Positions 19,481-61,025 of a stretch of DNA of 64,000 nucleotides are shown here, piece after piece. A program made the translations under genes and the position numbers. Origin of the DNA: Dipteris shenzhenensis (taxonomy: Eukaryota); NCBI GenBank assembly GCA_047967505.1, contig CM106538.1; one strand, 5' to 3'. The notes beneath the pieces were generated by a model, which was not told where the DNA came from, did not search any database, and worked only from the letters and a program-made list of their open reading frames with translations. Within the stretch, counting starts at the first letter, position 1. Every line of letters begins with the position of its first letter.

Positions 19481-19568
19481 TATAAATATCATGATTATGC
19501 CACTTAAGTAATAAGTCACAAATTGGTGTATAATCAACAAAAACTACAAACACAACATCATACATGCA

Positions 19569-22500: not shown

Positions 22501-25500
22501 GGTAACTCCAGATCAAAAATCTCTCTAAGAAACAACATGCAGTTGTAGGCGACTCTCCACCCACAACTGTGTCCATCTTTTTGCTCCACTGGCAGACGTC
22601 TTTTGAATTCTACTTGATCTTGTTGCTCCATGGTTGTTCTGACAGCAGATACTAGCCGATATGCAGCACTGTCCAGCATGACATATGAAATATATTAATA
22701 TGTCATGATCATAAGATACAAAATAAGAAAGTATCAAAAATATTAAGAGAATAATTACCTTGGGGAGTTGGCATGATAGCCTTCTATTGAATTCACAAAC
22801 CATAAATGGTTGAGTTCAAGGTCCCAGAAGATCAGACTCCAATGTGAGCTACACGACCAGAATAAAAATGATTATTGTTTTACACAAACTTGCCAAAGAA
22901 ATAGTAAAAATAAGGTTAGAGTTGATACTTACGCCTCATGATAAGGCATTAAGATGACTCGCACCCCATCTAAATTCAAAGGGCTTAACCAGGTACAGAC
23001 ATCTTCTATAGTCTTTTGAGGAGAGCTAAGAATAGAAGAAAGGAGAGCATCGAGCATGTAGACACGATGCTGCACTGTACTAGGAAGTTGAGAAATAACT
23101 ACACTGCACCAAGAAATAAACAAACATTAGCTCATAGAATTGATTTGCATTCTGCACTAGGAAACTGATATATAACTGAACTGTGAATAAATAAACAAAT
23201 GTTAGCTTATTGAAGTAGCAATAAATAAATAAACATTACCTGAGAATGGCCAAGATAACGTTGTCATTAACCTCTTTTAAAGGATTGGAGAGGATTGAAA
23301 CCTCCTCTCTACCAAAGCTTAAATACTGAGGTTCTCGTTTCAAAACGATCTTAACTTGAAATGAGCTCTCCATTTTATCTAATGCAGCTAAATTTGATTT
23401 TTCAATCAAATTTAGAGGTGGTTGCATTGTTGAAGTGGAAGGGAGTGCCTCCGTATTGACTTCATCCATTTCTTCTCCCTCTATTGCCTGTAAATAAATA
23501 TGAGAGATTAGAGTCATTATCTTTAAATTTAAATCTTATTTAAAAAATTGTATTTAGTTGAGAAATAGAGAGTTCATACCGCTAAGTATTGTCGTAGTGG
23601 CCTTTTTTCATAACCCTGAGAGCCATAATTATCAAAGAGGGCATCATCATATTTGTCTTCATCCACCAACCTCTCTGTGAATGGGTCATGTAAGTCCATC
23701 TTTTCATCATTAACAACTGGGACATTATGATCTTCAAGGTAATCATCCATGTCATCGGTGTCCTTGTGGTCTATCTCTTTTTCATAGCCTGTGGTTAGAT
23801 CTGCTTGAAGCTGGAAATAGGCCATGAAATGCTTATTTTCAATAATATTGGTGGAGTTGCCTTTTCTTAGGAGATCCTCAAATAAATATCCCATCCTGCA
23901 CAAGGTGACCTCCCAACCTGCCGGCAGCAAATTCTCCATCATGGTAAGCAAGAGACTCCCACTTTTTGCAGGACTTCCGTAGTTGTTTTTCTGATAATGT
24001 ATGGACCTGGGAATATCTTGCTCTTCTAGCATCAATCTCAAATTATTTGAATTCCCTCTTATGTTCTTTTGTAAAGAGTGATCAGGGTTGGGACTCCGCA
24101 TACATAGAAAGAATGATTCAAGAGTTTGAATCGCTATGCCACATTCTCTCTTGCCTCTCTTTGCTGCATAAACACCACTATAGATCTTCAAATCTGATGA
24201 ATATGCTCGCTCTAGAGTAACCTGCATGGCTTCTTTGTCTTTTTTATCAACAAATATGACAATGTTACAAATCGCCACTTTGCTAATGGTGGTATATACT
24301 ATTCTATCAATGAAGTTATGGATATCATCGCTAGAAACTTCATTGATAAAGAATAGTTGTGGCTTATCCCATGCTGACTCATTCTTAAAGAAGTCATCTT
24401 CTGAGACTCCCCTGAAGTTGACAAGCTTTCCAGACTCTGCCGTAACCTCTACATTGAATTGAAAGCTTTGGTGCATATCTGTTGGCATTCTTATCTCGCT
24501 GATTAATCTTTCCACATATGCAACCACCTGTTGTGGGATCTCTTTTCTCATATAAGAGGTTACTATTTCCGACCCATCTTCATCCTTTTTAATCCACCTG
24601 TTGGCCCATAGCTTTACCTTGGGTGTTGACAAAGAAGCTATATGCTTCACCACATTATAGTCAATGTTGCAATGAGTAAGTGGAATTTGTTTCTCTGACA
24701 GCAAATACTTGATGGCACTATGCACTGCATCACGCCTCACCTGTACATTGATGCATTCTTCCATGCAGTGGTCTTTGTCTTTTTTTCCAAAAAACCATTC
24801 TTTCTTTAAAATTCTTTGTGCTGCCATGGATGCATACTTATCAGGTAAGTACTTTACAGGCCTCCACATCCTTGCCGTCAACTCCTTCTTATCCATTACC
24901 TTTGACTTGCCGGAGATAAACAAAGGAGCTTCATAGGTCAGCTGTCCACGCTCACAAGCAATGCACGTTTCAAGCATCTCATTGAACACTTCAACAGGAC
25001 GAAAGATGATAGAAGTATAGTCGGCATATCTGTCCCTCACCACCTTGAGGCTTGTCATACTTTCTTCCCGCTCTTGGGTTCCCCTAGGCACAACTGCACT
25101 CAAAGAAGTATAAAAGTTTGTGAGTGTGTCGGCGTCTGCTTTTGTGACCTTTCGCTTCAAATCAGGATTTGGGGAACCAAATGTTGTCCATATCACCCTT
25201 GCCTTCTGTAAGACCTCTGATGTTGAGGATATCTTACGCTTTCCATGGACATAATGATTAAGTCTTTCGGACTCAATCAAATATTTAATCTCATGCTTGA
25301 ATATACAGATCGTTGCAGGATAATAATGGAATGAGCTTATCTTTACAAATTGTTCTGGAGTGAGTCTTTTGCCCTCCTTTGCTTCCCTTGCGATCTGATT
25401 ACAAGCATAAGCCCAATGTTGACCATCAATGGGCTGGAATCTGCAATGAAGGAGAAATTCCTTCTTGACTTCCTTTAGCATATTCTCTCCTTGTGCCTCT

Positions 25501-26789
25501 TCGCCTCGTTCATGTGGAATATTTTTTAGAGTGTTTTTAAAGAATTGACTGAAGATCTCCTCGAAATGTGTAGGCCCTGTAAATGTTATTTGATCCAGAA
25601 AACTATTTTTGGTTGGACAAAACATTATTGGGCGCAAGACCACATTACTTGCCACAGGTTTCTTGCCATCTCTCAAAGCCTCGTATATTTGCATTGCATA
25701 GGATATATCAAGGCTTCGGCTATTAGTAAACAGAGCTGCAGCTTCCACATCTTTGGCATTCACAAACCACGTCCTTTGACCCCAGATATATCCCACATCA
25801 TCATCTGTAACTGCTTCATTAAGACGCAGATTAAGATTTTTAATTGATGTGAGTTCATCTTGATCATCTTCAGCCTCGGATTCTGAGTCTTCTTCATCTT
25901 TCTCTTTTTTTGACTGTTTTTCATCCACATTATCTTTCTCTACAGTGGGACGATGTCTTTTCTTACTGCTTGGAACCGTGGCTCTTGCAGTACTAGCCTT
26001 TTGCATTTCACGTCGTGGCTTGCTAGCAAGAGCTTCTAGCATAACTGCAGTGGATCGACCTTGATCTTCTTCAATTTTTGCTAATTCCCGTGCACTCAAG
26101 GCTTGTTTTTCATCATCCTTAGTTACATTCACCATTTCTGGCTCTACAAGTTTGCGCTCATCTTCTACAGGTTTGTGACAGTGTGCCTGTTCTTCTTGTC
26201 CCTGCATTGAAGTCTGAGCTTTTTGATCTCCTTCATGTGATGATTCTTGCATATGGAGAGCATATTCTGCATCCTGAAAGTATTCAAGCATTATCTTTGC
26301 ATGCATCATTTTTGCCACCACACTAGGAAATTGCTCCCAAGTATATGAAAGAGTCTCCAATGCCCTTTGCAACTCTGGAAACTTTGATGGTTGAGGAGGA
26401 GGCATCACAAAGGTCTTTGCGTCTCTCCTTGACACAATAAAATGCATACCGCCAACTTCAGGATCTGAACTCTTTGTTAAAATATCCACAAATGTGTCTT
26501 TTCGCTGAATTATTATGCCTACTACAAGGCTTGAAGTCATATCTTTTTTGAAGAAAGTAGCATCCCATGGATCTTCAACACCATTGAACTCCCTTTTTGA
26601 CATAAGTAGAAAGAGTCTCTTTTCCTTTTGATGAAGAAACCAGGCTCTTCTACCCATGTGATATCGAGTCCACCTACCAAAGCCATTGGGGCTATATTCC
26701 TTTCCTTTGAAATTCAAAGTGACATCAGAAACCCATTCTCTGATCTCAGAGTCATCTAGCATAGCCATCACATTAGCTGATTGCTCCAT
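19569..26789 (-). CDS. Spliced ~1,933-aa protein: ParB/Srx-like (DGQH) domain + degenerate methyltransferase-like domain + 3x Ulp1/C48 cysteine protease
   Basis: Inferred GT-AG coding exons: 26789-23580, 23487-23240, 23103-22933, 22848-22759, 22668-22386, 21926-21697, 21613-21443, 21357-21268, 21176-20712, 20584-20414, 20331-20242, 20151-19569. They total 5,802 nt and join in frame with no stop. Each protease repeat has 171-nt and 90-nt exons with HWSL...NS and Q...CGWRV motifs. Confidence 0.8.
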
Positions 26790-27923
26790 AATCCTACAAG
26801 AAAAGATAATGAAGAATTTAGATACATACAAGTAAAGTACAATATACAACCCTTGATACAATAAATGTGGAAAATAGCCCAAAAGGCTTTACAAGGCTTC
26901 ATATGGCAATAAATGTGGGAAATAGCCTAAAAGGCTTTACAAGGCTTAAATATTTGTACAAATGTAAAAGAATTAGCCAATAAAGCTTTACAAGTAATAT
27001 AAAATGTCGTCTAGTGATAAAGCTTCAATCTTCGTGAAGATTCATGTAATCTATCCATCCATTGATATCTGAGCACTGATACCCAACTGTTGCAATCTAT
27101 CCACTAAAAACTGTTCCACTGATATCCACTTATGCAGCCCACATGATATCCGCTTATGCATCCCACTGATACTCGTTAATTAGTGAATGGTCGGGATGGT
27201 CGGGTTTATTACAAGGCGCTTCATATGACAATAAATGTAAAAAATAGCATAAAAGGCTTTACAAGGATTTTTATGACAATAAATGAGCTTAAATATTTAT
27301 ACAAATGCAATAAAAATAACCAATAATCATCAAGCTCCAATATGTCCCATGACATGTAATCTGTCCACTGATATATGCAATCTGTCCACTGATATCTGCT
27401 CATGCAATCTGTCCACTGATATTTGCTCATGCAATCTGCCCACTGATAAACTTCTTGGTAAATGGTAAAAGGTCTTATTTAATAGCATGTTATGAGTGTT
27501 AAACCGCATGTGAGCGAAGGGACTGACAACGAATAGGAACTAGTTAGAAAAATTTGAGCATGGCTTCGATTGGCAACTTGGAGAATTGTCTCTCCTCTAA
27601 GGCAATCTAATCTATGCTAAACTATGCTAAACCAACCGTCGAAGCGAAGAAAAGCAATAAATAATTTCTTTTTCTGTGTTCATTTTAATGTGCTGGGGTT
27701 TAAGAGGCTTAAATATGCAAAAGAAGGGGTTGTGATGTAGAGGCTAAACCTGCATGTGATATAAATAAAGAACAAGTATCTAAAGAAAAGTTAACATTTT
27801 TCAATTTAAAAGATGAATATATATAAAAACATTATCTCACTTTCAAAATAAACCATAAATTCACTCTTTTATAATTTTTTAAAAGTATAATATAAAGTAT
27901 GTAAATATATAAAACTCTCTTTA

Positions 27924-27925
<2 letters not shown>

Positions 27926-27966
<41 letters not shown>

Positions 27967-28183: not shown

Positions 28184-28217
<34 letters not shown>

Positions 28218-28367
28218 CTAAATCTCCTTGTAGTCATAGTCAAGACACCTCATTCTCTCTCTTAATCTCTCTCTCTCTCTCTTTGACAACTCTTAAGTAT
28301 TTTTCTCTCTATCCTCATCCCACTTATTCTCTCTCTCCCTCTCTCTCCCTCTAGCACAGAAGTTTCA

Positions 28368-28403
<36 letters not shown>

Positions 28404-28920: not shown

Positions 28921-30113
28921 TCCCATTTCTCAAATTTACAAACTCGAATATAAATAAAAAACTAATTAAAATAGAACTCAAAAACTCAAATAAGAAACTA
29001 ATCCCTATTCTCCCATTTCTCAAATTTACAAACTCGAATATAAATAAAAAACTAATTAAAATAGAACTCAAAAACTCAAATAAGAAACTAATTTAAAAAG
29101 AATTGTAATGCCTTCTAAAAGACCACCCTCCTCAAAAACTTTAAGAATAAACTAATTGAAAAAGAATTATAAGTAAAGAAAAAGAATTACAATACGAATT
29201 TTAAGAAATAGAACTCAAAAACCTTAACAAGAAACTAATTGAAAAGAATTGTAAGTAAAGAAATAGAATTACAAGACGAATAAAAAAGAATGCAAGTACC
29301 TGGAAAAAGTGGAAAAAGTGAAAAAAGTAAGGCTCGGCTTATCCTTTCTCTTCCGCTCTTGGTTGCTTCAATGAAACGAGGAGAGAGTTAAAACTAGTCC
29401 ACTCCTACACATAAATTTGAATTTTCAAAAAAGAGAGGGAAATTTGAATTCATTATAAATTTGAATTCAAATTTGTGTTCAACATTCTTCTTATACGTTC
29501 CTTTTGAATTCAAATTTATGTTCAACATTCTTCTTGATACTTTCTTCAACATTCTTCTCGATTCTTGTAAGTCCTTTTCATTCTCGTAAGTCCTTTTCAT
29601 GTAAGTCCTTTTCATTCTCGTACGTCCTTTTCATTCTTCTCGTAAGTCAAATCTTATTTTTCGTTCTTGCTCGTGATAGTAAGTCAAATCCTCCTCTCCC
29701 ATCTCTCTCTCCTTCTCTCTCTCTCCTCTCTCTCCTCTCCTTCCCTCCATCCATCCCTCGACCCAATCCTCTCCTCCAACCTCCTTCCCTCCCCTCCCCT
29801 TCCTCCGCCGCCAAAACTCCTCCCTTCCCTCCGCTCTCCCTCCTTCCCCAAAATCCCTCTCCCCTCTTGCTACCCTTCCCCTCTCCCGTCGCCTAACCTC
29901 TTCCTCCCCTACCCCTTTTTCCCCCTACCCCTTTTAACCTTCCTAAATTTTCCCCACCCCCCTTGGCGACCCCCCCAACCTTTCCACCCTCTTCCCCACT
30001 CTCCCTTTGGCCCCCCCTCCCTCCTTCCTTGGCGACCCCCCCCTCCTCTCACCCAGCTCCCCCTCCGCCCTCCCTGGGGCTGGCCGCCAGCCCCCCCCTC
30101 TCCTCACTCCCTG

Positions 30114-31591
30114 GGCTGGCGGCCGCGGCCGCCAGCCCCCCCCCCTCCTCACCCAGCCCCTCCCCCTCTTCACCCTCCCCCCCTCTTCCCAACCCACCCA
30201 TCCCGCTCCCTGGCTGGCGGCCGCGGCCGCCAGCCCCCCCCCTCCTCTCACCCAGCCCCCCCCTTCTCCTTCCTCTCTCCCTAGGCTGGCGGCCGCGGCC
30301 GCCAGCCCCCCCCCCCTCCCTCTCACCCACCCGCCACCCCTCCCCCCCCTTCACCCTCCTTGGCTGGCGGCCGCGGCCGCCAGCCCCCCCCCCCTCTCCT
30401 CTCTCCCTTTCCCGCTCCCTGGCTGGCGGCCGCGGCCGCCAGCCCCCCCCCCCTCCTCTCACCCACCCCCCACCCCTCCCCACCCATCCCGCTCCCTGGC
30501 TGGCGGCCGCGGCCGCCAGCCCCCCCCCCCTCTCCTCTCTCCCTGGCTGGCGGCCGCGGCCGCCAGCCCCCCCCCCCCTCCTCTCACCCACCCCCCACCC
30601 CTCCCCACCCATCCCGCTCCCTGGCTGGCGGCCGCGGTCGCCAGCCCCCCCCCCCCCCCTCTCCTCTCTCCCAGCCCCCCCCCCCTCTCCTCTCTCCCTG
30701 GCTGGCGGCCGCGGCCGCCAGCCCCCCCCCCCCTCCTCTCACCCACCCCCCACCCCTCCCCACCCATCCCGCTCCCCTGGCTGGCGGCCGCGGCCGCCAG
30801 CCCCCCCCCCCCTCTCCTCTCTCCCCCCTCCTCTCACCCAGCCCGCCCCCCCTCTCCTCTCTCCCTGGCTGGCGGCCGCGGCCGCCAGCCCCCCCCCCCT
30901 CTCCTCTCTCCCCCCTCCTCTCACCCAGCCCCCCCTCTCCTCTCTCCCTGGGCTAGCGGCCGCGGCCGCCAGCCCCCCCCCCTCTCCTCTCTCCCAGCCC
31001 CCCCCCCCCTCTCCTCTCTCCCTGGCTGGCGGCCGCGGCCGCTTGCCCCCCCCCCCCTCCTCTCACCCACCCCCCACCCCTCCCCACCCATCCCGCTCCC
31101 TGGCTGGCGGCCGCGGCCGCCAGCCCCCCCCCCCCTCTCCTCTCTCCCAGCCCCCCCCCCCTCTCCTCTCTCCCTGGCTGGCGGCCGCGGCCGCCAGCCC
31201 CCCCCCCCCTCCTCTCACCCACCCCCCACCCCTCCCCACCCATCCCGCTCCCTGGCTGGCGGCCGCGGCCGCCAGCCCCCCCCCCCCTCTCCCTCTCTCC
31301 CCCCTCCTCTCACCCAGCCCGCCCCCCCTCTCCTCTCTCCCTGGCTGGCGGCCGCGGCCGCCAGCCCCCCCCCCCTTCTCACCCACCCCCCACCCCTCCC
31401 CCCCTCCTCTCACCCAGCCCCTCCCCCTCTTCACCCTCCCCCCCCGCTTCCCAACCCACCCCCCCCCTTCCCTGGGCTGGCGGCCGCGGCCGCCAGCCCC
31501 CCCCCCCCCTTTCGCAACCCCTCCCCCACCCCCCCTTCCCCCCCTCAGCCGCTCCCCCACCCTCCCGGGCTGGCGGCCGCGGCCGCCAGCC
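30114..31591. repeat. Array of 19 copies of the 24-bp palindrome GGCTGGCGGCCGCGGCCGCCAGCC in C-rich spacers
   Basis: Counted by eye: 16 perfect, 3 with 1-2 mismatches; period roughly 55-145 bp. Confidence 0.92.
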
Positions 31592-31994
31592 CCCCCTCTT
31601 CACCGCGCCCCCCCCCCTCCCCCTCCTCCCCCCTCCCCCCCCTCTTCACCCTCCCCCCCCTCCCCCCCTCAGCCGCGGCTCCCTCCCTCCCCCTCTCAGC
31701 CGCTCCCCCCTCCTCTCGCTGCGCCCCCCCTCCCCCTCTCAGCCGCTCCCCCCTCCTCCTCCCAGCCTCCCCTCTGCACCCACCCGCTTCCCTCCCACCC
31801 GCCGCGCCAGCCTCCCCTCCCACCCTCACACCCACCTCCCTCTTCGCCCCTTCTTCCCCTCCCTTCCTCCTCCCTCCCGTCCCACCCTCTTCCTCCCCTC
31901 CCTTCCTCCTCCCTCCCCTCCCCTGAACCTTTCTCTCTCTAATTTCTCTCTCTTTAAATTTTAAAAAAGAAACTAGAAAAAAAAGTTTGCAAGT

Positions 31995-32230
31995 ACCTGG
32001 AAACAGTTTGTAAGTTTGCTCTTTCTTGCTTTCTTGCTCTTCCTTCCTTGCTCTCTTGATCGTCCTTGCTTTCTTGCTTGAATGAAATGAGGGGAGAAAG
32101 AATGAATGAAGGAAGACTATATATAAGAAAAATTAGGTTTTCCTCCTCCTCTCCTATTGGCTTTCCATTCCTCCCCTCTCTCCTATTGGCTTTTCATTTA
32201 TCTCCTCTCCCATTGGCTCCCATTACTCCC
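31995..32230 (-). promoter_or_regulatory. Putative promoter and non-coding first exon of the ParB-Ulp1 gene
   Basis: On -: several CCAAT boxes (32155-32220), AAAACCTAA, TATATATA (~32118-32126), then a CCAG|GTAC donor at ~31998. The same arrangement occurs at 55540-55735 in the host copy. Confidence 0.55.
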
Positions 32231-41130: not shown

Positions 41131-41258
41131 AACTTCTCCCACTAATAAATTAAGTACTAATTAAAAATTATAATAAATAAGTAGATTATTAAAAAGAGAC
41201 TAATATTTATGTAATTGTTGCCACTGCAGCTTGCTTGCGAAGGACTCTCACAAAGGAG

Positions 41259-44200
41259 ATGGCTATAGATTTTGTTCCAGGGATGGATGTGATTTTATGT
41301 AGCAAAAGAGAAGTAGTTGCATTTGCTACAATCCATGATAGTGATCCCAATTCTCTTTGCCACTTTCGAAGACTTGGCGAAGATAAGGTAGCAGTTACTG
41401 TATCAAAGATTCTTAGCGCACATGTTGAGCTAAAGTATAAATGTGGAGATATGGAAACACTTGGAGATGTTATGCCCTACAATACATCCAACAAATCATT
41501 TATAGCATGGGACAAAGATGAGACTTATGCAACAGACATTATCAAGAATACAAAGTGCACCACCTTGGATTTTACTATAGGGGACATTCTACAAATGAGA
41601 TCATTTGCAAATAAGATTGTAGCAGAAGGTGAAGTATTGGGATTTGAACAAGTGGAGCAATGGTCATTTGCGCAGATGAGGATTCTAAAAGTCACTGATG
41701 ATGGTATGGTTGATAACATAACATCCTTATGTGATCCCTACTATGAGGTAGGCAAGAATATGAGATGGAGCATGCAATTTTTAAACATGAGAAAGAGGCA
41801 CGTGGTTTTCAATGATAAAGACAACGCATACTACAATATCAAAGGACCTAAAAAGCGTGCCCATGTGCCAGGCTCTATCACTTCAAATGTGGATGATTTC
41901 AATATACTCAATTATAGAAGTGACATCTTATCTGGAGTGGATGAGTTCATTGGTTCCAAGAAACAAAATGATTTTAGAAGCGAAGCCTTATCTGGGGTGG
42001 ATGAATTCTTGCACAGTGAGAAGGGCAAAGGTTTCAATAGCGATGTCTTGTCAAGTGTGGATGAGTTCATGCATATTAACAAACCTGGTGTCAATCAAGG
42101 TTGTGGATTTGTGAAATCCATGCAAGATGTCCCAATGAGTGATGTTCTCTCAGGAGTGGAAGAGTTTCAAGGTTCTCAATACTCTCGTAGAATATTGAAT
42201 TCATTGAATGGTCCTAAGAGTATGTTAAAAATGAGGATGAGATCAACAGAGGATTATTCAGTATTTAACTTTGATTGTGATATGAACAAGGATGCAACGA
42301 CCAATCATGGATGCTTGGTTACAAACAAATGTGAGGAGAAGAAGTGCATAAATACAGATAACAATGTGTACGAGGAACGAAAACGGTCATACATATGCAT
42401 GAAGAGAAAGAGAATCCAGGCAGATCCACAAAAGCAACCAAAGAGGAAGAGAGTAATGAAGGAGGAGAACATGTTAAATGCATTGGGATATCTATGTTGC
42501 AAGCGAAGATGTATGCGCTTCATTGATCTTGCAGACATCAGGGAATGTAGAGGACACGTGTGGCAAAGAAGGGGAAGCGAAAGAAATGAATACCTTCTCA
42601 CAAGTCTCTCTTGCTTTCTTCAGAATGGCAATAAAAGGCTAAGTTCAAGACAAAAGGTAAAACCTCTCGTAAATGGAAAAAGGATTTGCAATAAGGCATA
42701 TCGCAATATTACTGGATTATCCCATGGTACATATTGGGATTTAGTCACCAAGGCAAAGGGCGGCAACAAATTTAGCATTCACGGTAATAGAGGAAGGTCC
42801 AAATCAAGAATCTCAACTGTCAGGGCAGCAGCAATTTTACAAGACTTCATACATGAAAATGCTTTGCCTCAACCCCATATATCTACCAAACTCCCTAACG
42901 GTGACGCGATCACTGAAATGCACCTTCCAATGGGCTTGACAAAGCTCGAAGTATTTGACTCTATTGCAGAAAAGCAAAGGCAAAGAGGGGATGCTGTAGC
43001 TTCTTCTCATACTTTGTATACTCTTTGGAAGAAGAACTTTGGATATGTTAAAATCCCAAGGAGGCAAAAAATGTCAAAGTGCAATGTCTGTGATGATTTA
43101 AAGCGAGCGATTGAGAGTGCAACATGTCCAAATCAAAGGGAATTATACAAAAAAAACTGAAAATCTCATCATGACCTTATTCGACATTCCAGACAAAAAT
43201 ATGCATTTTGGAAGGAGCAAGCTATTTCGCATCCTGATGACTACATGTGTCTTATTGTAGATGGCATGGATCAGAATACAACAACATTGCCTCGTTTTGT
43301 TGCCACTCCACCTAAATTACAAGGAAAGCACTTTCTAAAGACACATCTATGTGTAGTGTTAGTGCATGGAATTAAGTTCTTTGCAGATATATGGATTGAT
43401 TCCTTGCATCTACATGATAGCAATCAAGTTGTAACATCTATTATGAAGGCAATTCGCAATGTACATGCAGAAAAAGGTCGCCTGCCACCGACTTTGAGAA
43501 TACAAGCTGATAATTGCTGGCGAGAAAATAAGAATGTACTTATGTTTGCCTTCTGCTCCATGCTAGTTGCTCATCGAATCTTCAATGAGGTCGAATGTGG
43601 ATTTTTGTATGTTGGGCATACACATGAGGATATCGATCAAGTTTTTAGCACAGTCTCAACGGAGCTTAAATGCAAGGATGTGGAGACAATAGATGACTTG
43701 GTAAGAAGATGTGGCAGGCAAGTTGGTGGTCGTAAGGAAAGTACAGTATGTGAGAGGCTCGAAAGAATGTATGATTGGAAGAGCTTCATTCTACCTTTCA
43801 TACAAACGGGTGGTGATGCATTGACAGGTCATACCAATCCACACTACTTTCGTTTTTTTTTTAAAGATGAAAAACCCGTAATGCAATGGCAACAGTATTC
43901 TCATGATACAAAATGGGAACCTGAAGAACCTTACAGTCTCTTAACTTCAATTCCCAGCAAGGAAAGGTATCCAACATGGGCTCCTATACAAGAATTTAAT
44001 GAGAGGTCTAATTGTGAAATAGATGGATTAAAAGCATTTATTACATACAAAGAGGAAATGCTCCAGAGATATCCTGATTCGAAGCCTGCTTGGAGAGAAC
44101 ACACTACCACTGTAATTAACAAGACACGAAATTTAATAAAGGACCTTGAGAGAATGCGAGGCTCAAAGGATGTCAAGGAAGAATGCAATATGTTTTGGCC

Positions 44201-44729
44201 AAATGTTCATAACGATTTGCGCCCAGCTCCAGTCTTTGAAAATGATTTTGTATCATTACTCCCACGTCCATATTGTGGACCGAAGAAGAGAGAGTTTATG
44301 CCACAAGTAGATATAGAGGTTGATTGTTTTGTTGTGGTTCGGCCATCGGATGATGAATATGAGAATGTGAAGTTTTGGGTTGCAAAAGTAGTTGATGTGC
44401 AAAGAGATGACCAAGGGAGAGCTACAACATTTACAGCGGTATGGTATGAGCCAAAGGGCAGGAAGGAGAATATGGATAACAACACATTATATACTAATTG
44501 TATAATGAAGGAGTGGGTCCCAAATGATGAAGCAGTCTCTCAAGTTTCGACAGAGACAATCATAGTGTCTTGGCATTCAAGGGCAAAGAAATCAAAGAAG
44601 CACATGGGATATGAGGTAGAAGGAAAAATAAAAATACCACAGCAAACTATTTTGCATATACACGAATTTTTAAGGATGCTCGCCATGGAGGAAGTAGAAG
44701 GAGATAGCGCAAATGAAGAATGTCGATGA
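41259..44729 (+). pseudogene. Sola1-like DDD transposase (~1,155 codons) with a single in-frame stop at 43158-43160
   Basis: ORFs 41235-43160 and 43245-44729 are in the same frame. Motifs: CCKRRC, ICNKAY, KCNVC, IVDGMDQ, QADNCWRENKN, FLYVGHTHEDIDQ. Splice acceptor at 41229 with branch-like gactaat, then ATG at 41259. Confidence 0.85.
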
Positions 44730-46461: not shown

Positions 46462-49400
46462 TTCTCATAGTATGGCATAAAGACAAGTAGTATGCCATCC
46501 AAGTCTAAAGGTTGTAGAATTGAACAAACATCATCTACTATCTTCTTGGTATCACTAAGTACAGCTGAAAGAAGAGAATCGAGCATACAAACGCGATTCT
46601 GTACTAATCTAGGAAAATGAGATATAACCGTACTACAGCAATAAATAAACAAATGTTAGAAGCAGATTGAATCAAATGATTGAAGTATCAAGTCAAGAGA
46701 TGTTCATATCAAACCTGAGGATGGCCATCATGACTTTGTCATTAGCCTCTTTCAAAGGGTCGGAGAGGATTATAACTTCCTCGCTACCAAAAGCCAAAAC
46801 ACGAGGTTGCTTGCTAATGATGACCTTAACCTCAGAAGAGCTCCCCATTTCGTCCAATACAGCGGTTACATCAGGACAACTTATGGGCGTAGCAACCAAT
46901 GTTTCCTCTGGATGCTCCACCACGTTATCAATAAATGCCTTAATGATAGATGACATAAATGCATATAGATGCAAGTCTGTATATGTGGACAATGAGGTTT
47001 CACCGCCTCTCAAATCAAAAATTTGAGCAAGGAGCAAGAAGCAGTTATATCCAACTCTCCACCCACAACTGTGGTCATCATTCTGCTTCGCTGCAGGGCA
47101 TGTTACATACTCTATTTGATCTTCCAAGTCACCCTCCATTTGCATAAGTGCATCTGTAGCACTTACCAACTTTCGAGCAGATCTACACATCAAAATAGAA
47201 AACATAAATGAATGTGCGCATTGCATAGGATGCATCTCATTGACATAATTATGACACAAGTAGGTTATACTTACTCTGACACACTGCCATGGATAGATGC
47301 TATTGAATTGACAAAGAAGCATTGCTTGGCTAAGATGTCCACAATTACCAAGCTCCAATGCAAGCTGCATTATCAATTAAGAATAATTATTATTTAATAT
47401 AATCCTCCACAATGTAAGAGATAAGCTAGGTAGGGATTGATACTCACTCCTCGTGATATGCGGTAAAGATAACTCGCGCCGCAGTCAAATCAATAGGTTG
47501 CAACCACCTAAAAATGTCATCTATGGTCTTCTCCTTATTGCTAAGTACACTAGAAACAAGAGGATCGACCATATATGCACATCTTTGTATATATAGCGGA
47601 AGCTGTTGTAAAACCATACTGCAATAAAAAGAAAAGAATATTAGTTCATTTGATCCAATGGAAATACAAAAGCATAAAGTCAGTAAAAAGTTTGTGTCAA
47701 ACCTGAGGATGGCTATTATAACCTTGTCATTGACCTCTTTCTTGAAGTTTATGAGGATTGAAATATCCTCTTCATCGAATATAAAAGTAAGAGGTTGTTC
47801 TTGAACTTGAAACCTAACTTGAAATGACTTCTCCATTTGCTGCAATGTATGATTATTTTCTAGAGTCATCCGATGGATAGCCAGAGCAGCTTTGCTTTCT
47901 TGAGATGAGCTTTCATGATTCTCTGCTCCAACTATGTCCTCCTCATCCTCCTCCTCTCCCTTCTCCTATAAAAGGATAAAATAATTATGAGATTCAAAAT
48001 TTTAAATTAATTATAAATTTAAAAAGACCTTTAAATGAATAAAGAAAATTAAACATAAGTCTTCATACCTCTACATATCTTCGTGGTCTTTTTATGTAAC
48101 CTTCAGAGGCAAGGTCAGTGTCATATCCATCTTCCTCTGCTTCCTTGCTATCGCTGGTATCCTCACTATTATATCCAGAGCTTTGATCATTTTCATCATC
48201 TTTCTTGCTCTCATCGTACATGATCTGCTCTATGTCATCCTCTTCATGTGAGATCGGACCTTTCTTATCAAACTTTATTGTGAGAGAAGCCACGGTATCA
48301 AGGTATTCCAAGCAAGTAGGGCTCTCAATAATATTTACATTGTGTCCTTTTCTGATAAGAGCTTCAAACAGATGTCCCATTCGGCACAATGTGACTTCCC
48401 ATCCAGACGGTAGCAAAAATTCCATCATACTAATTAAAAGATCAGCACTTTTTGCTGGCCTTTCATAGTGATTTGCATTGCGATGGAGGGGACTTGGAGC
48501 TTCATGCTCTTCCAGCAGTAGTTGCAATCTCTTTGCATTCCCTCTTATATTGTTTTGTAAGGAGTGATCATTATAAGGGCTCTTCATGCACAAGAAAAAG
48601 GTTTCTAGACTCGGTATCTTGAGACCGCATTCTCTCTTGTCCCTTTTTCTTGAGTATATCCCATTGTAAATCTTGAGCTCATTGCCATATTGTTTTTCTA
48701 GGGTAGCAGACATTTGTTCCTTGTCATCTTTATCAGCAAATATGACTATATTACATTGTCCCACTCTACCAATGGTGGTATGTAATATTCTGTCAAGGAG
48801 TGGATGGATGTCATCCGCTGATATTTCATAGACAAAGAAAAGCTGAGGTCTCTCCCAAGCAGTGTCGTCGGACAAAAAATCACTCAATGAAACTCCCTTG
48901 CACTCAACACTCTTTCCAGACTCTGAAATGATTTCATGTATGAAATAAAAGCCCTTGTTCAAAGTCTTTTCTTTTCTGAGAGTGTGGTTATTGATGACTT
49001 TTTGTGCATATGCATACACATTTTCCGGAATGTCACTTCTCATAGAGGGAGTAATTTCAGATCCATCATCTTCTACCTTCACCCATTTATGCGCCCAAGC
49101 CTTCTATTTAGTTGACGGTAAAGCTGATGCCATCTGCCTCACAATGTTATGATCAATTTTACATTGGCTGATTGGAATATTTTTTTCTCCCAATAAATAT
49201 TCAATTGCACTCTTTACTGCATCACGCTTGACCTGTTGGATGATGTTATCTTCCATGCAATGATCTTTATCCTTTTTGCCAAAAAACCATTCTTTTGACA
49301 TTAATTTCTCTGCAGCAAGACTTGCGTATTTATCTGGTAGGTTTCTTAAAGGCCTCCACATCCGAGCTGTCATCTCTTTTTTCTCAATCTTCTTTTCCTT

Positions 49401-51455
49401 CTCTTTAATCAATGATGGAGCCTCATATGTAACATCTCCTTTCTCACATGCAAGACACACGTCTTTGATCTGATGAAAAACTTCATCACTACGGAAAAGT
49501 ATGCTTGTGTAGTCTTGATATCTATCCCTTACTGTCTTGAAGCTTGTAATCACCTCAGCTCTTTCCTGCTTTCCCCTTGGTACAATGGCACTCAAGCATG
49601 TGTAGAAGTCAACAAGATTATCCGCTTCCACTTTAGTTGCAGTTCTTTTGAGAGTGGTCAAAGGAGAATTAAAAGTTTTCCATATGGTCCTAGCTTTGAG
49701 CAACATCTCTGAAGTGGAGGTGATTTTTCGTAGTGCATAAATGTCATGATTAAGTCTTTCCGACTCAATCAAATATTTCTTCTCGTTCTTGAAGATACAG
49801 ATGCATGCAGAATAGTAGTGAAATTGAGGCACACTCGCGAAAGTTTGATAAGTAATTTCTCCTTTCTTGTATGCATCTCTAGAGCGCTCATTACAAGCAT
49901 AGGCATAGTGCTGACCATCTATTGCCTCAAATGTACAATGAGCTAAGAAATTTCTCTTGGCATCCCTTATATGTCGTTCTGGATCATTCACTGAACTCTG
50001 TCCTTCTTGAAGTGAGGGAACTTGTTTTCCGAGGAACTTAGTGAATTGCATCTCAAAATCTATAGGCTGAGAGAAATTGATGGATTGACTATAATCTCCC
50101 ATGACTGGCCAAAATGTTCTTGGACGGAGTACCAAATTAGAAACAACTGGTTTTTTTCCATCAATCAAAGCCTGAAAAATCTTTTCAGCATAGGCTGTAT
50201 CTAAGGTCCTGCTGTTGGTGAAGACACTTGCTTTGACCACTGTTGAAGCATGTATAACTTGAGTCTTCTGGCCCCATATATATCCTGGATCCTCATCTGT
50301 CACAGCCTCATTCAAGCAAAGATTTAGGTTCTTCATTGATAACATTTCTGCTTCTAGATCTGACTCCATTTCAAGACCCTCCGCATTCTCTTCATGTTCT
50401 TCCTCTTCTCTTCTTTGCCCTTTCTTTGTATATGAACGACCTCTTTTTCCAGTTATAGGACTTGGAATTGTAGCTCATGAAGTACTTGCCTTTTGCATTT
50501 GACGTCGAGGTTTATTTTTTAGAGGCTCAATGTGAACTGCTTTAGATCGCCCTACTTCTTCTTCTATTGCGTCAACTTCAGGTATACTTAAGGGCTTCAC
50601 TTGTTTTGTTATTCCATCAACTTCATGAGTTACACCATCTAAGTGAGTAATACCATGAACAAGAGATGTGTGTGAATGTCCTGTCTTATCTGATGCATGT
50701 CGTGTCTCACTCAATTCAATTTCTGTCTGAGATGCATGTGCATGTCCGGTCTCCACCAATTCAATTCCTGTCTCAGATGTAGATCCCTTGTAAGCATCCA
50801 CGTGTACAAGACCCTCATCCATTGCTACAATGTGTTCTGTCTCATCCACTCCACTTCCTCTCTCATTTGTATTACCATGAACCAAATCTACATGGCGTGT
50901 CTCATCACTTCCTTTCTCATGTGTGGATTCTTGCACCTTAGGTCCCTCCAATGAAGTTGAACCTTGTTGGATGACACCCTGAAAGTATTCAAGGATAATC
51001 TTTGACTGCATTTTTCTTGCTTCCTCAATGGGAAATTCCTCCCACACATGTTGAAGGATCTCCAATGCAGGAACCAATTCAAGAAATCTAGGTGCTTTTG
51101 GCAGCGGCATCACAAAGTGTATTGCATCTTTCTTAGAAAGAAGAAACGATCTGTTGCTCATTCTTGACTTTGTGTAAATCATCATTGTAGTGCTGTCTTT
51201 TTCAATTTTTATTCCTACTAAAGTGCCCCCTTGAATCAAATTGCTCTTGGAGAAAGATACATTTGATGCGCACTCATCTTTCTCCAACTCTCTCTTTGTC
51301 ATCACTAGAATGAGATTTCCTTTACTTAAGACCAAGAACCATGCTTTCTTTGTTGTGTCAACAACTGTCCAGTTTGTGAAGTCCTTTGGGGCATAAATTC
51401 TTCCATTGTATTTCAGTGTCATACCATTGACAAATGCTGTAGCCTCAAGATCCAT
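46462..51455 (-). pseudogene. Host-element ParB/Srx-like + methyltransferase-like + Ulp1 gene (continues at 17178-16441)
   Basis: Large exon 51455-48069 in one frame with two premature stops (50475, 49104) and motif FEAIDGQHYAYAC. Exons 47965-47703, 47618-47448 (171 nt), 47364-47275 (90 nt), 47182-46715, 46632-46462 (171 nt). Colinear with 19569-26789. Confidence 0.85.
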
Positions 51456-53909: not shown

Positions 53910-55450
53910 CTTTCGCTGCCGCAGCAGCGGCCCCTCCCCTCCTCTCTCTCTCTCCCTCCCCCTCTCTCTCGCTCTCGCATCTCCCCCCTACTCTCTCTCC
54001 CCCCCCTCCTCTCTCCCTGCCGCGGTAGCGGCCCCCCCTCTCTCTTCCCTCTCCCCACCCCTTCCCTCTCCCCCTCTCCCCCTCTCTCTCTCCCTCCCCT
54101 CTCTCTCGCTACCCCCCCTTCTCTCTCTCCCCCCCCTCCCTCTCTCGTTGCCGCGGCAGCGGCCGCGGCCCCCCCCCTTCTCTCTCTCTCCCCCTCCCCT
54201 CTCTCTCGCTCCCTCCGCCCCCTCCCCGCTTCCCTCTCCCCCCCCTACCCCTCTCTCGCTGCCGTGGCAGTGGCCGCGGCCGCCCCCCTTCTCTCTCTCT
54301 CCCCCTTCCCTCTCTCTCGCTGCCCCCGGCCCCTCCCCCCTTCCCTCTCCCCCCCCCTCCCCCTCTCTCGCTGCCGCGGCAGCGGCCGCGGCCCCCCCCC
54401 CTTCCCTCTCCCCCCTCTCTTGCTCCCCCCTCCCTCTCTCTCCCCCCTTCCCTCTCCCCCCCCCTCCCCCTCTCTCGCTGCCGCGGCAGCGGCCGCAGCC
54501 CCCCCTTTCTCTCTCTCCTCCCCTCCCTTTCCCCCCCCCCCTTCTCTCTCCCCTCCCCTCCTTCTCTCGCTGCCGTTGCCGTGACAGCGGCCCCCCCTCT
54601 CTCTCTCTTCCCCCCCCTTCCCTCTCGCTGTCCCCTCTCTCCCCCCTTCCCTCTCCCCCCCTCCCCCTCTCTCGCTGCCGCTGCCGCGGCAGCAGCCCCC
54701 TCCCTCCCCTCTCCCCCCTCCCCCTCTCTCGCTGCCGCGGCAGCGGCAGCGGCCCCCTCCCCTCCCTCTCCCTCCTCCCTCTCACCGCCCCCCTCCCCTC
54801 CCTCTCCCCCCTCCCTCTCACCGCCCCCCCTTCTCTCTCCCCCCCCCCTTGCCCCCGCCCCCCCCCTTCCCTCTCCCCCCCCTCCCCCTCTCTCGCTGTC
54901 GCTGCCGCGGCCCCCTCCCCTCCCTCTTCCCCCCCCCTCCCCCCTCCCCCTCTCTCGTTGCCGCTGCCGCGGCAGCGACTCCCTCCCCTCCCTCTCCCCC
55001 CTCCCTCTCACCGCCCCCCCTCCCTCTCTCGCCGCGGCCCCCATCCCTCCCTCTCCCCTCTCCCTCTCACCGCCCCCCCTTCCCTCTCCCCCCCCTCCCC
55101 CTCTCTCGCTGCCGCGGCAGCGGCAGCGGCCCCCTCCCCTCCCTCTCCCCCCTCGCCTCCCCTCCCTCTTCCCCCTCTCTATCCCTGCCCCTCCCTCCCT
55201 CTCTCGCCGCCCCCCCTCCCTCTCCCCTCCCCTCTCCCTCCCCTCCCTCCCCCCCTCTGCACTGCCGCGGCAGCGGCCTCCCCCTCTCCTCTCTCTCTCC
55301 CCCCCCTCGCTGCTTCTCCCCTCTCTCCCCTCTCTTTTCCCCCTCCCCCTTCTCTCCCCCCTCCCTTTCTCTCCCCTCTCTTTCCTCCCCCTTCTCTCGT
55401 CTCTCTCCCTCTCTCTTTCTTTCTCTCTTTTGCTGCCGAGGCAGCAAGAC
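53910..55450. repeat. Array of ~13 palindromes CGCTGCCGCGGCAGCG (and variants) in CT-rich spacers
   Basis: Perfect copies at ~54369, 54476, 54730, 54962, 55107; the others carry transitions. Same position as the 30114-31591 array. Confidence 0.85.
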
Positions 55451-55539
55451 TCTCTCTCTTCTTTTCTCTCTCTAAAAATCTTTCCTTCACTTTTCTCTCT
55501 CTATAATAAAATTTCAAAGAATACAAATTTTAAAAACAG

Positions 55540-55735
55540 TACCTGGAAAAAAGTTGAAATCGATGCTTGTGCTTGCTTTTGCTCTGCCTCCTCTTTTTGC
55601 TTCTCCTCTTGCTCTTCCTTGTTGAAATGAGAGAAACAATGAGAGAAGGAGAGTATATATAAGAAAAACTAGGGTTTTAAGTGCTTCTCTCTCATTGGTC
55701 CTTCTATAACATTATCTCCTCTCCCATTGGCCTCT
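55540..55735 (-). promoter_or_regulatory. Putative promoter and first exon of the host ParB-Ulp1 gene
   Basis: On -: CCAAT boxes, telo-box-like AAACCCTAG, TATATATA, CCAG|GTAC donor; homologous to 31995-32230. Confidence 0.55.
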
Positions 55736-57688: not shown

Positions 57689-57826
57689 GTTATTGGTTAG
57701 TGTCTAATTAAATTTTCAAACACGTTCTGGATTTTTAAATCATTACTAAAGTAGATTATTGAGAAGAGACTAATGTTCTTTATAATGGTTGTTACAGCTT
57801 GTTTGCAGAGGAAACTCACAAAGGAG

Positions 57827-60800: not shown

Positions 60801-61025
60801 AGAGAGAAATCCAAAGGTGAAATAGAAGGCTTAAAAGCTTTTATTGCATACAAAGAGGAAATGCTCCGGAGATTTCCTGATTGGAAGCCCTCTTGGAAGG
60901 AACACACTACTGTTGTAATTAGCAAGACCTACCAATTGATAAAGGACCTTGCAAAAATGTGAGAAGATGATATTAAGGCAGAACGGCCTTTATTTTGGCC
61001 AAATGTTGCTAATGACTTGCGTCCT
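57827..61025 (+). pseudogene. Host-element Sola1-like transposase, disrupted and 3'-truncated
   Basis: Colinear with 41259-44229. Frameshifts at ~58570 and ~60060, stop at 60960; DGMDQ, DNCGRENKN and VGHTHEDIDQ retained; splice acceptor at 57797. Confidence 0.88.

What the first reader, a model, noticed from the sequence alone, without database searches (positions are those of the whole stretch)
30114..31591. Array of 19 near-identical 24-bp palindromes in the cargo gene's predicted first intron: candidate parS-like binding sites
Seen: GGCTGGCGGCCG|CGGCCGCCAGCC is held nearly invariant while the C-rich spacers vary. The array lies between the putative promoter (~32120) and the ParB-like coding exon. 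Established: ParB dimers load at clustered palindromic parS sites, and VANDAL anti-silencing proteins act through arrayed motifs in their own elements. Inference: these are cognate sites for the element's own protein.
Basis: partly seen in the sequence, partly recalled or inferred. Interest (0 to 1): 0.85.

Follow-up and report, generated by a model that had tools for sequence, protein, structure and literature searches.

The report
Palindrome array beside transposon ParB-like gene
A real array of 19 near-identical 24-bp palindromes sits in the probable leader intron of a mobile-element gene whose protein combines a ParB-like fold with a methyltransferase-like fold. Similar arrays beside ParB-like transposon genes are already reported from red algae, where self-binding has been proposed but never tested.

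Summary
There are 19 copies of GGCTGGCGGCCGCGGCCGCCAGCC at 30114-31591, 16 of them exact, against 0 expected by chance.

The array lies in a 77% GC tract that is G-rich on the sense strand. It sits between a conserved CCAAT/TATA promoter with a splice donor (about 32128-31996, minus strand) and an acceptor just before the ATG at 26789.

The intact 1071-aa ORF has no sequence-level family match. By predicted fold it is ParB/Srx-like (best Z 7.0) followed by a beta-class N6A/N4C DNA-methyltransferase-like domain (Z 10-12, Foldseek E 1.7e-5). That domain lacks the usual catalytic motifs.

A second, decaying copy of the gene in the window is 50% identical in protein, with dS saturated and dN/dS 0.21. 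It has the same layout but a different 16-bp palindrome, and the two palindromes share the core GCCGCGGC.

Part of the "invariance" comes from a recent 476-bp higher-order duplication. The older flank units still keep exact palindromes beside diverged spacers.

Petroll et al. 2025 already describe tandem inverted-repeat arrays beside ParB-like accessory genes in red-algal transposons and propose self-binding. This case is therefore a new variant of a known, untested kind. Binding itself could not be tested here.

The parts
30114..31591 (.). Array A: 19 copies of the 24-bp palindrome GGCTGGCGGCCGCGGCCGCCAGCC (two overlapping NotI sites, central CCGCGG), separated by spacers of 23-108 bp
   Evidence: 0 of 100 shuffles gave a match
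30078..30092 (.). Shortened 15-bp palindrome GGCTGGC-C-GCCAGCC, which lacks the inner GGCCGCGGCC block
   Evidence: read from the sequence
29690..31950 (-). GC-rich, strand-asymmetric tract holding the array: 63.6% C on the plus strand, so G-rich on the gene's sense strand. It has 33 G-quadruplex-type motifs on the minus strand and 0 on the plus strand.
32118..32216 (-). Promoter-like region: TATA box (32118-32128), a telo-box-like AAACCTAA just upstream of it, and CCAAT boxes at 32156-32160, 32185-32189 and 32212-32216. The TATA block and two of the CCAAT boxes are conserved in copy B.
31990..32000 (-). Putative 5' splice donor CCAG|GTACTTG (exon 1 ends at 31997). The 12-mer TTTCCAGGTACT is identical in copy B.
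26789..26800 (-). Putative 3' splice acceptor cttgtag|G (AG at 26795-26794), followed by the ATG at 26789
23574..26789 (-). Intact ORF of 1071 aa plus stop codon: the ParB/Srx-like plus methyltransferase-like accessory protein
25239..25787 (-). ParB/Srx-like fold (protein residues about 335-517) with the DGQHW motif
23787..24467 (-). Beta-class N6A/N4C DNA-methyltransferase-like fold (residues about 775-1001), without a DPPY-type or FxGxG motif
27488..27700 (-). Conserved non-coding block inside the putative intron, 82% identical over 214 bp to 51937-52147 of copy B. Its function is unknown; it could be an alternative promoter or exon.
53914..55446 (.). Array B: 14 copies (5 exact) of the 16-bp palindrome CGCTGCCGCGGCAGCG in a C/T-rich tract, at the same position relative to the copy-B gene
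48066..51455 (-). Copy B of the gene, with 2 in-frame stop codons and 50% protein identity to copy A
55538..55663 (-). Copy B promoter-like region: TATA box at 55653-55663 and donor CCAG|GTACT at 55546-55538
41193..44729 (+). Divergently oriented DUF7869 gene with one in-frame stop at 43158-43160. It is a putative transposase, carrying the family motifs DGMDQ..QADNC..GHTHEDID.
57755..60962 (+). Copy B of the DUF7869 gene, split over three reading frames

Best explanation
The array is a cis-acting recognition platform kept by the mobile element. Each palindrome is a site for a dimeric sequence-specific DNA-binding protein. The most likely binder is the product of the gene the array sits in, a ParB/Srx-fold plus methyltransferase-fold accessory protein.

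Many sites just downstream of the element's own promoter would give high-avidity, element-specific loading. The most probable outcome is self-marking or self-regulation of the element's chromatin or transcription: anti-silencing or autoregulation, as with VANC on VANDALs, or KorB and VirB among ParB relatives.

Shown here: the array, its position, the protein folds, and the co-occurrence in two old lineages. Inferred: the binding, the identity of the binder, and the outcome.
For: 1. The array is real and non-random.
2. It lies 405 bp downstream of a putative donor that follows a CCAAT/TATA promoter. Both features are conserved in the second copy.
3. Two of two gene copies in the window carry a palindrome array at the same place.
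4. The two copies are 50% identical in protein, with dS saturated (1.9) and dN/dS 0.21. They therefore split long ago while under selection.
5. Both arrays still share the core GCCGCGGC. All 34 CCGCGG sites of the 64-kb window lie in the two tracts.
6. The outer arms of the palindromes differ between the lineages, as expected if site and protein specificity diverge together.
7. Array integrity tracks gene integrity. Copy A has an intact ORF and 16 of 19 exact palindromes. Copy B has 2 stops and 5 of 14 exact; 11 of its 13 changes in the 11 in-register copies are C>T or G>A (3 register-shifted copies were left out).
8. Flank units keep exact palindromes beside diverged spacers.
9. The protein has a ParB/Srx-like fold (PadC Z 7.0, KorB 6.3, Srx 5.9 and 5.4, SerK 5.4) and a DNA-methyltransferase-like fold (the top 11 rows are all beta-class N6A/N4C DNA MTases, Z 10.1-12.1; 35 Foldseek matches at E<=0.001).
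10. Petroll et al. [quoted passage not shown]
11. The Ectocarpus Sola1-1_Ec32 element carries a ParB-like plus MTase gene on the strand opposite the transposase (PMC12477816, passages read).
Against: - No binding data of any kind exist.
- The ParB/Srx fold alone does not bind DNA; Srx and SerK do not. The helical part after it matched ParB HTH regions only weakly (pNOB8 ParB-N Z 4.8, Spo0J Z 4.1).
- The fold evidence for ParB is middling: model pLDDT 68.7, Z 7.0, and no Foldseek match at E<=0.001.
- There is no sequence-level family match in Pfam, NCBIfam, PADLOC or PDB.
- The Box II arginines needed for NTP binding in ParB-type proteins are absent (their role read in passages of PMC12704722).
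- Much of the palindrome identity reflects a recent 476-bp duplication. All 4 palindrome substitutions lie in that young part.
- Palindromes shared by all units could be homogenised by gene conversion without any selection.
- The sample is only 2 gene copies, and no genome is held to test more.
Confidence: 0.4

Rival explanations
1. The array is a neutral GC-rich minisatellite. It grew by slippage and unequal exchange, and the palindrome is simply part of the repeat unit. Concerted evolution or gene conversion keeps it uniform, and no protein reads it.
For: - A 476-bp higher-order repeat at 97% identity, and a 78-bp period with 10.9 copies.
- Same-type spacers in the core are 89-100% identical.
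- All 4 palindrome substitutions fall in the core.
- The element is full of other satellites: a 182-bp unit in 45 copies, a (TTTAGGG)n array, and CCCACT repeats.
- Spacing between palindromes is irregular, 47-132 bp centre to centre.
Against: - Two lineages with saturated synonymous divergence both keep a palindrome array at the same position, with a shared 8-bp core found nowhere else in 64 kb.
- Flank units keep 7 of 7 exact palindromes beside spacers that differ by 4-23%.
- The same association is reported across Plavaka families in a red alga.
Confidence: 0.25
2. The tract is a structure-forming or epigenetic control region that acts without the element's own protein. The options are:
- a CpG- and G4-rich leader or intron whose sense strand forms G-quadruplexes or R-loops;
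- palindromes that pair in the transcript into 24-bp duplexes, giving small-RNA precursors or pausing and splicing control;
- a methylation target or host-factor binding island, like the GC-rich leader of maize Spm (recalled, not checked in any call).
For: - Twenty-one G4-type motifs on the sense strand of the array and 0 on the other strand. The palindromes hold 84% of the array's CpG.
- The sense RNA of 30400-30830 folds with neighbouring palindromes paired: -183.5 kcal/mol, z = -10.3, with 0 of 100 shuffles folding as well.
- Copy B's palindromes have decayed mostly by C>T and G>A (11 of 13 changes), as expected of methylated cytosines.
Against: - No RNA run is available, so transcription, splicing and small RNAs are all unknown.
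- Structure formation needs self-complementarity but not the conservation of one exact 24-mer or of a shared core between lineages.
- It does not explain the repeated association with ParB-like genes reported in red algae.
Confidence: 0.22
3. The palindromes are bound by another element protein, such as the DUF7869 putative transposase encoded divergently, as internal transposase-binding or enhancer sites.
For: - A DUF7869 gene with a D..D..E-like motif and Cys-rich N-terminal blocks lies divergently in both copies.
- Transposases commonly bind repeated subterminal motifs (general knowledge).
Against: - The array is internal. No terminal inverted repeats were found, and no palindrome copies lie near any candidate end.
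- The array lies inside the ParB-like gene's leader, not in the transposase gene's.
Confidence: 0.08
4. It is a true parS-type partition site: a ParABS-like segregation system for an extrachromosomal form of the element.
For: Clustered palindromes next to a gene with a ParB-like fold.
Against: - The Box II arginine motif is absent.
- No ParA-like ORF was found among the 10 large ORFs scanned.
- The gene is fused to a methyltransferase-like domain rather than an HTH plus dimerisation architecture.
- The locus is chromosomal, with decayed copies.
Confidence: 0.03

Closest known systems
PAG3 (ParB-like plus 2OG-oxygenase accessory gene) with adjacent tandem arrays of inverted repeats in Plavaka (EnSpm/CACTA) transposons of the red alga Bostrychia moritziana (Petroll et al. 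2025, bioRxiv 10.1101/2025.02.11.637652; section 8 read)
   Same: - A giant DNA-transposon context.
- An accessory gene with a ParB-like domain.
- A tandem array of inverted repeats next to that gene.
- The authors propose the same thing: the protein binds and modifies its own element, by analogy with VANDAL. It is untested there too.
   Different: - The second domain here is methyltransferase-like, not a 2OG oxygenase.
- The partner gene is a DUF7869 protein. No Plavaka, EnSpm or KDZ Pfam family hit any of the 10 ORFs scanned.
- The array lies in the gene's own leader intron.
- The paper's repeat sequences and figures were not available to me, so the repeats could not be compared.
ParB-like plus N4C/N6A DNA-methyltransferase accessory protein of the 21.5-kb Sola1-1_Ec32 transposon of Ectocarpus (PMC12477816; passages read). 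ParB-N6_N4_Mtase fusions are also frequent in phages and prophages (PMC12704722; passages read).
   Same: - The domain order: a ParB-like fold followed by a beta-class amino-methyltransferase fold.
- The gene lies on the strand opposite the putative transposase.
- Size of about 1100 aa.
   Different: - No sequence-level match to ParBc or N6_N4_Mtase models.
- No DPPY-type motif in 7 of 7 family members, and no FxGxG in copy A, copy B or P0005, so the domain is probably inactive.
- The passages I read in that paper mention no palindrome array.
- Whether DUF7869 is a Sola1 transposase was not tested.
VANC anti-silencing proteins of Arabidopsis VANDAL (Mutator-like) elements and their tandemly repeated target motifs (Hosaka et al. 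2017, PMC5735166; abstract read)
   Same: - An element-encoded protein proposed to act on arrayed motifs in non-coding parts of its own element.
- The target motifs form tandem repeats that differ between related elements, as arrays A and B do here.
   Different: - VANC is not ParB-like, and its motifs are short and not palindromic (recalled).
- The element here shows no Mutator transposase.
ParB-family transcription regulators acting at palindromic sites: KorB of plasmid RK2 (second-best structural match) and the anti-silencer VirB of Shigella (search listing and starts of abstracts only)
   Same: A ParB-fold protein that recognises palindromic sites and regulates, or un-silences, promoters of its own mobile element.
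   Different: - These are bacterial and work as CTP-dependent clamps.
- The protein here lacks the Box II arginines and carries an extra methyltransferase-like domain.
- It has 19 clustered sites, rather than single or dispersed operators.

Membership tests
parS / ParABS partition system | Clustered palindromic sites | tested here: met
   19 copies of a perfect 24-bp palindrome
parS / ParABS partition system | A ParB with the N-terminal CTPase fold carrying the Box II GERRxRA arginines | tested here: not met
   The fold is ParB/Srx-like, but the motif reads DGQHW/Y/I/V followed by xxAC, with no arginines, in all members that cover it.
parS / ParABS partition system | An HTH DNA-binding domain and a C-terminal dimerisation domain after the N-terminal fold | tested here: inconclusive
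   The helical region 221-361 of the model matches ParB HTH-containing chains only weakly (Z 4.1-4.8). The C-terminus is methyltransferase-like instead.
parS / ParABS partition system | A ParA ATPase partner nearby | tested here: not met
   No ParA-type Pfam hit in the 10 large ORFs scanned. Smaller or spliced genes were not examined.
parS / ParABS partition system | Specific binding of the protein to the site | not testable with these tools
   Needs EMSA, DAP-seq or ChIP.
Algal transposon ParB-like accessory gene with adjacent inverted-repeat array (PAG3 type, Petroll et al. 2025) | An accessory protein with a ParB-like domain | tested here: met
   At fold level only: the five best VIA rows are all ParB/Srx fold, Z 5.4-7.0. 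There is no sequence-model hit.
Algal transposon ParB-like accessory gene with adjacent inverted-repeat array (PAG3 type, Petroll et al. 2025) | A tandem array of inverted repeats next to the gene | tested here: met
   Present in 2 of 2 gene copies in the window.
Algal transposon ParB-like accessory gene with adjacent inverted-repeat array (PAG3 type, Petroll et al. 2025) | A 2OG-dependent oxygenase domain | tested here: not met
   The C-terminal domain matches beta-class DNA methyltransferases.
Algal transposon ParB-like accessory gene with adjacent inverted-repeat array (PAG3 type, Petroll et al. 2025) | Carried by a DD(E/D) DNA transposon with defined ends | tested here: inconclusive
   A DUF7869 gene with a D..D..E-like motif lies beside the gene in both copies. 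No terminal inverted repeats or target-site duplications were found.
ParB-like plus N6/N4 DNA methyltransferase fusion (Ectocarpus Sola1-1_Ec32 type; phage ParB-MTase fusions) | A ParB-like fold followed by a beta-class amino-methyltransferase fold | tested here: met
ParB-like plus N6/N4 DNA methyltransferase fusion (Ectocarpus Sola1-1_Ec32 type; phage ParB-MTase fusions) | Catalytic motif IV (D/N/S)PP(Y/F/W/H) and SAM motif I FxGxG | tested here: not met
   No motif IV in 7 of 7 members. No FxGxG-type match in copy A, copy B or P0005; scattered matches in four longer relatives were not mapped to the domain. At the expected places the sequence reads FFINEVSS and VTLCRMGY (placed by eye against the model's strands).
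ParB-like plus N6/N4 DNA methyltransferase fusion (Ectocarpus Sola1-1_Ec32 type; phage ParB-MTase fusions) | Encoded on the strand opposite the transposase | tested here: met
   Divergent from the DUF7869 gene in both copies.
VANDAL / VANC system | A Mutator-like (MURA) transposase and a VANC homologue | tested here: not met
   No MULE or Mutator Pfam hit in the 10 large ORFs.

The most novel reading that the evidence does not exclude
A eukaryotic DNA-transposon lineage has taken a phage-type ParB-methyltransferase fusion, lost its catalytic motifs, and turned it into a sequence-specific reader. The result would be element-specific self-recognition, either anti-silencing or copy-number autoregulation. 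Site and protein specificity would have switched between lineages: a 24-bp versus a 16-bp palindrome around a shared GCCGCGGC core.
Probability: 0.3. Interest if true: 0.8.

Novelty: new variant of a known kind. Interest (0 to 1): 0.5.

Why it matters
Whether transposon-encoded ParB-like accessory proteins recognise arrays in their own element is an open hypothesis. It appears in two recent algal genome papers and has never been tested.

This locus offers an unusually clean test case. It has an intact 1071-aa ORF next to 16 exact copies of a 24-bp palindrome. It also has a natural specificity control in the diverged sister copy, which carries a different palindrome.

If binding is shown, it would be a second, independent instance of sequence-specific self-recognition by a transposon accessory protein, after VANC/VANDAL. 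It would also be a eukaryotic use of the ParB fold on DNA. If binding fails, the repeated association of palindrome arrays with these genes needs another explanation, such as structure, small RNAs or methylation.

Tried and rejected
**Sequence searches with the protein, all blank**
- No Pfam, NCBIfam, PADLOC or PDB-sequence match for the protein or its relatives.
- The word-indexed search of 5.8 billion proteins found nothing at near lengths.
- tblastn against phage records found nothing.

**Leads that did not hold or were not checked**
- The protein-atlas lead to DUF3723 (score 0.94, 164 shared features) was not backed by Pfam. I dropped it.
- Whether DUF7869 is a Sola1 transposase was not tested. 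No paper holds the term DUF7869, and a DUF7869 profile had no PDB sequence match.
- The GC-rich Spm leader analogy is recalled only. A literature search for it found nothing.
- A GCC-box or host AP2/ERF reading of the GCCGCC inside palindrome A is recall only. The motif is not shared by palindrome B, so I did not pursue it.

**Searching beyond the window**
- No whole genome is held, so the family-wide census could not be run.
- A metagenome scan with the 24-mer found 6 single, non-arrayed matches in 61-73% GC contigs, unrelated in context.
- Earlier findings of this scan: nothing for this genome, sequence or words.

**Sequencing runs**
- No RNA holder was listed.
- Laying four DNA contig sets showed the flanks in independent data, but no contig spans a palindrome. 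Short contigs break at the poly-C runs. This says nothing about array variation.

**Other blanks**
- Homodimer prediction of the ParB-like region gave no answer.
- The VIA second look (pdb_via) was unavailable twice.
- Rfam gave no match at gathering thresholds in the window, and only one chance-level row in 26700-32400. No tRNA genes were found.
- No terminal inverted repeats were found for copy B.
- The proline-rich and glycine-rich ORFs across the tract follow from the lack of A/T and were not treated as genes.
- The supplements of both algal papers were not seen. They may hold the repeat sequences and element models needed for a direct comparison.
Full report
**The observation**

The 24-mer GGCTGGCGGCCGCGGCCGCCAGCC occurs 19 times (up to 3 mismatches) in the window. 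All copies lie between 30114 and 31591. Sixteen are exact. None of 100 dinucleotide-preserving shuffles gave a single match.

Spacers are 23-108 bp. A shortened version, GGCTGGC-C-GCCAGCC, lies at 30078-30092.

The array sits in a tract of 77% GC with GC skew -0.64. On the plus strand the array is 64.6% C. Of its 234 G, 208 lie inside the palindromes, as do 76 of its 90 CpG. The palindromes are thus islands of strand symmetry in an otherwise polypyrimidine/polypurine tract. The long proline- or glycine-rich ORFs across it follow from its composition.

**How much of the 'invariance' is informative**

TRF reports a 476-bp higher-order repeat at 97% identity over 30516-31376. In this core the spacers fall into three types, each 89-100% identical within its type. 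The three same-type pairs I aligned have no substitutions. All four palindrome substitutions lie in this core (copies 8, 12, 13). Identity there therefore reflects recent duplication.

The flanks carry the signal. Palindromes 1-5, 18 and 19 are exact (7 of 7). Their spacers differ from their nearest relatives by 4-23% in substitutions plus many indels. At the pooled per-lineage spacer rate, the chance of no change in 168 palindrome sites is about 6e-5. This figure is crude for two reasons. Low-complexity alignments are uncertain. And gene conversion among the 19 shared palindromes could produce the same pattern without selection.

**Gene context**

The gene is on the minus strand. Upstream features:
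- three CCAAT boxes, at 32156-32216;
- a telo-box-like AAACCTAA;
- a TATA box at 32118-32128;
- about 120 nt further on, CCAG|GTACTTG, with exon 1 ending at 31997.

An acceptor, cttgtag|G, lies 4 nt before the ATG at 26789. The ORF 26789-23577 is intact and encodes 1071 aa.

The array starts 405 bp after the putative donor and ends 3.3 kb before the ATG. 'First intron' is therefore plausible. It is unproven, because no RNA run holds this sequence.

A 214-bp block in the same interval (27700-27488) is 82% identical to copy B. That is more conserved than the coding sequence. It could be an alternative promoter or exon.

**A second copy as a natural comparison**

The window holds a second, diverged copy of the whole unit. 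It comprises:
- the gene at 51455-48066, with two in-frame stops;
- a C/T-rich tract at 53700-55450;
- a promoter-like region near 55660.

The promoter alignment keeps two CCAAT boxes, the AAAMCCTARTTTTTCTTATATATA block and the 12-mer TTTCCAGGTACT. An AG again precedes the ATG.

The proteins are 50% identical (524 of 1044 aligned residues). Synonymous sites are saturated (pS 0.69, dS 1.9) and dN/dS is 0.21. The two copies are therefore old lineages that diverged under selection, not a recent local duplicate.

Copy B has its own array: 14 copies of the 16-bp palindrome CGCTGCCGCGGCAGCG, 5 of them exact. The two palindromes share the core GCCGCGGC. All 34 CCGCGG sites of the 64-kb window lie in the two tracts.

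In copy B, I counted changes in the 11 in-register palindromes and left out 3 register-shifted copies. Eleven of the 13 changes are C>T or G>A. This is the pattern expected from deamination of methylated cytosines in a silenced, decaying copy.

Array integrity thus tracks gene integrity, but the sample is only two.

**What the protein is**

No Pfam, NCBIfam, PADLOC or PDB-sequence match exists for the protein or its relatives. An exhaustive phmmer search of 1.84 billion representatives found 14 weak relatives, the best at E 7e-17. One is a hypothetical protein of the lycophyte Diphasiastrum complanatum. The relatives share TNxRxL, LRP and EPVDGQHxxxAC.

*ParB-like part.* An AlphaFold2 model of residues 300-660 has pLDDT 68.7.
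- In VIA-align the five best of 48,161 chains are all ParB/Srx-fold proteins: PadC (Z 7.0, rmsd 3.1, 99 residues aligned), KorB (6.3), Arabidopsis and human sulfiredoxin (5.9 and 5.4) and SerK (5.4).
- In Foldseek, 9 of the first 13 listed rows are ParB or Noc, but only at E 0.08-1.
- The ParB-like fold is therefore moderately supported.
- The Box II arginines are missing (DGQHW). Passages I read in PMC12704722 describe this arginine as needed for NTP binding.
- A helix-turn-helix domain is not established.

*Methyltransferase-like part.* The model of residues 640-1071 is poor overall (pLDDT 50.8) but has a core at 60-85.
- That core matches beta-class N6A/N4C DNA methyltransferases. The top 11 VIA rows are all of this family (M.MboIIA, M.BceJIV, M1.HpyAVI, M.RsrI, M.PvuII, CcrM and others), at Z 10.1-12.1. 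Unrelated folds score 6.8 or less.
- Foldseek gives 35 matches at E<=0.001, the best at 1.7e-5.
- No (D/N/S)PP(Y/F/W/H) motif occurs in any of the 7 family members examined. No FxGxG-type motif occurs in copy A, copy B or P0005.
- Where the model's strands place these motifs, the sequence reads FFINEVSS and VTLCRMGY (placed by eye).
- I infer that the domain is catalytically inactive or strongly derived.

**The neighbour**

In both copies a DUF7869 gene lies divergently on the plus strand (E 1e-52 and 9e-52). Copy A has one in-frame stop and copy B is frameshifted.

Its family is about 1000 aa long and is spread over streptophytes, chordates and hemichordates. It conserves DGMDQ, QADNC and GHTHEDID blocks plus Cys-rich N-terminal blocks. 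I read this as a DD(E/D)-type transposase by inference. No paper holds the term, and no PDB sequence matches.

No terminal inverted repeats were found. Mobility is therefore inferred from the duplicated, decaying gene pair.

No Mutator-type hit exists among the 10 ORFs scanned, so 'VANDAL' is not supported.

**What is already in print**

- Petroll et al. 2025 (bioRxiv 10.1101/2025.02.11.637652; section 8 read) describe PAG3, a ParB-like plus 2OG-oxygenase accessory gene of red-algal Plavaka transposons. They state that tandem arrays of inverted repeats lie adjacent to PAG3 across Plavaka families. They propose that PAG3 binds and modifies its own element and draw the VANDAL analogy.
- The Ectocarpus TE paper (PMC12477816; passages read) describes a ParB-like plus N4C/N6A methyltransferase gene on the strand opposite the transposase in Sola1-1_Ec32. 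[quoted passage not shown]
- PMC12704722 (passages read) shows that ParB-fold fusions to N6_N4 methyltransferases are frequent in phages.
- VANC targets form tandem repeats that differ between related elements (PMC5735166; abstract read).

The locus here combines the domain architecture of the Ectocarpus case with the array of the Bostrychia case, in a different element type.

**Most likely mechanism and its rivals**

My leading reading (confidence 0.4) is that the palindromes are binding sites for a dimeric protein, most likely the gene's own product. Nineteen sites just downstream of the element's promoter would then give element-specific loading that marks or regulates the element, through anti-silencing or autoregulation.
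- Shown: the array, its position, the folds, and the conservation of the design across two old lineages.
- Inferred: the binding, the binder and the outcome.

The rivals are:
- a neutral minisatellite homogenised by concerted evolution (0.25);
- a structure or epigenetic control tract acting without the protein (0.22). In its favour, the sense strand has 21 G4-type motifs, and neighbouring palindromes pair in a predicted RNA fold at z = -10.3;
- binding by the DUF7869 protein (0.08);
- a true partition site (0.03).

**Verdict**

The finding is a new variant of a known, hypothesis-level kind. It is of moderate interest, mainly as a very clean test case.

Noticed in passing
window 32918-41094: A 182-bp satellite in 45 copies (77% matches) fills the space between the divergently oriented ParB-like and DUF7869 genes of copy A.
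   Followed up: partly
window 56742-57688 and 28041-28067: At the place corresponding to copy A's satellite, copy B holds an interstitial telomere-like (TTTAGGG)n array of about 135 units. A four-unit run lies in copy A's putative intron. A telo-box-like motif also sits just upstream of both TATA boxes.
   Followed up: partly
window 27488-27700 and 51937-52147: A non-coding block of 214 bp is 82% identical between the two copies. It is better conserved than the coding sequence (66%), lies about 700-900 bp upstream of each ATG, and has no Rfam match. It may be an alternative promoter, exon or other cis element.
   Followed up: partly
window 55765-56612: A C-rich CCCACT/CCCATCCT repeat tract lies upstream of copy B's promoter, with 28 G4-type motifs on the minus strand. 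Copy A has no equivalent of this length.
   Followed up: no
window 16447-23388 and 46696-47845: Several tandem paralogous ORFs lie downstream of the ParB-like gene in both copies and share a DGHSCGWRVAYNC motif. Pfam gave no hit at E<=0.01 for the three I scanned, so a ULP1-like protease reading is unconfirmed.
   Followed up: partly
window 10441-11618 and 61119-62292: An 85% identical 1.2-kb segment lies downstream of copy B's DUF7869 gene and again near the left of the window. It may be the tail of a third element copy.
   Followed up: no
window 52199-52507: A small insert-like segment in copy B's putative intron is bounded by 26-nt inverted repeats. It carries GA-rich sequence and two degenerate copy-B-type palindromes (52287, 52429).
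   Followed up: no
window 43158-43160: A single in-frame TGA splits the otherwise continuous 1177-codon DUF7869 reading frame of copy A. It could mark a pseudogene or a read-through; I did not examine this.
   Followed up: no
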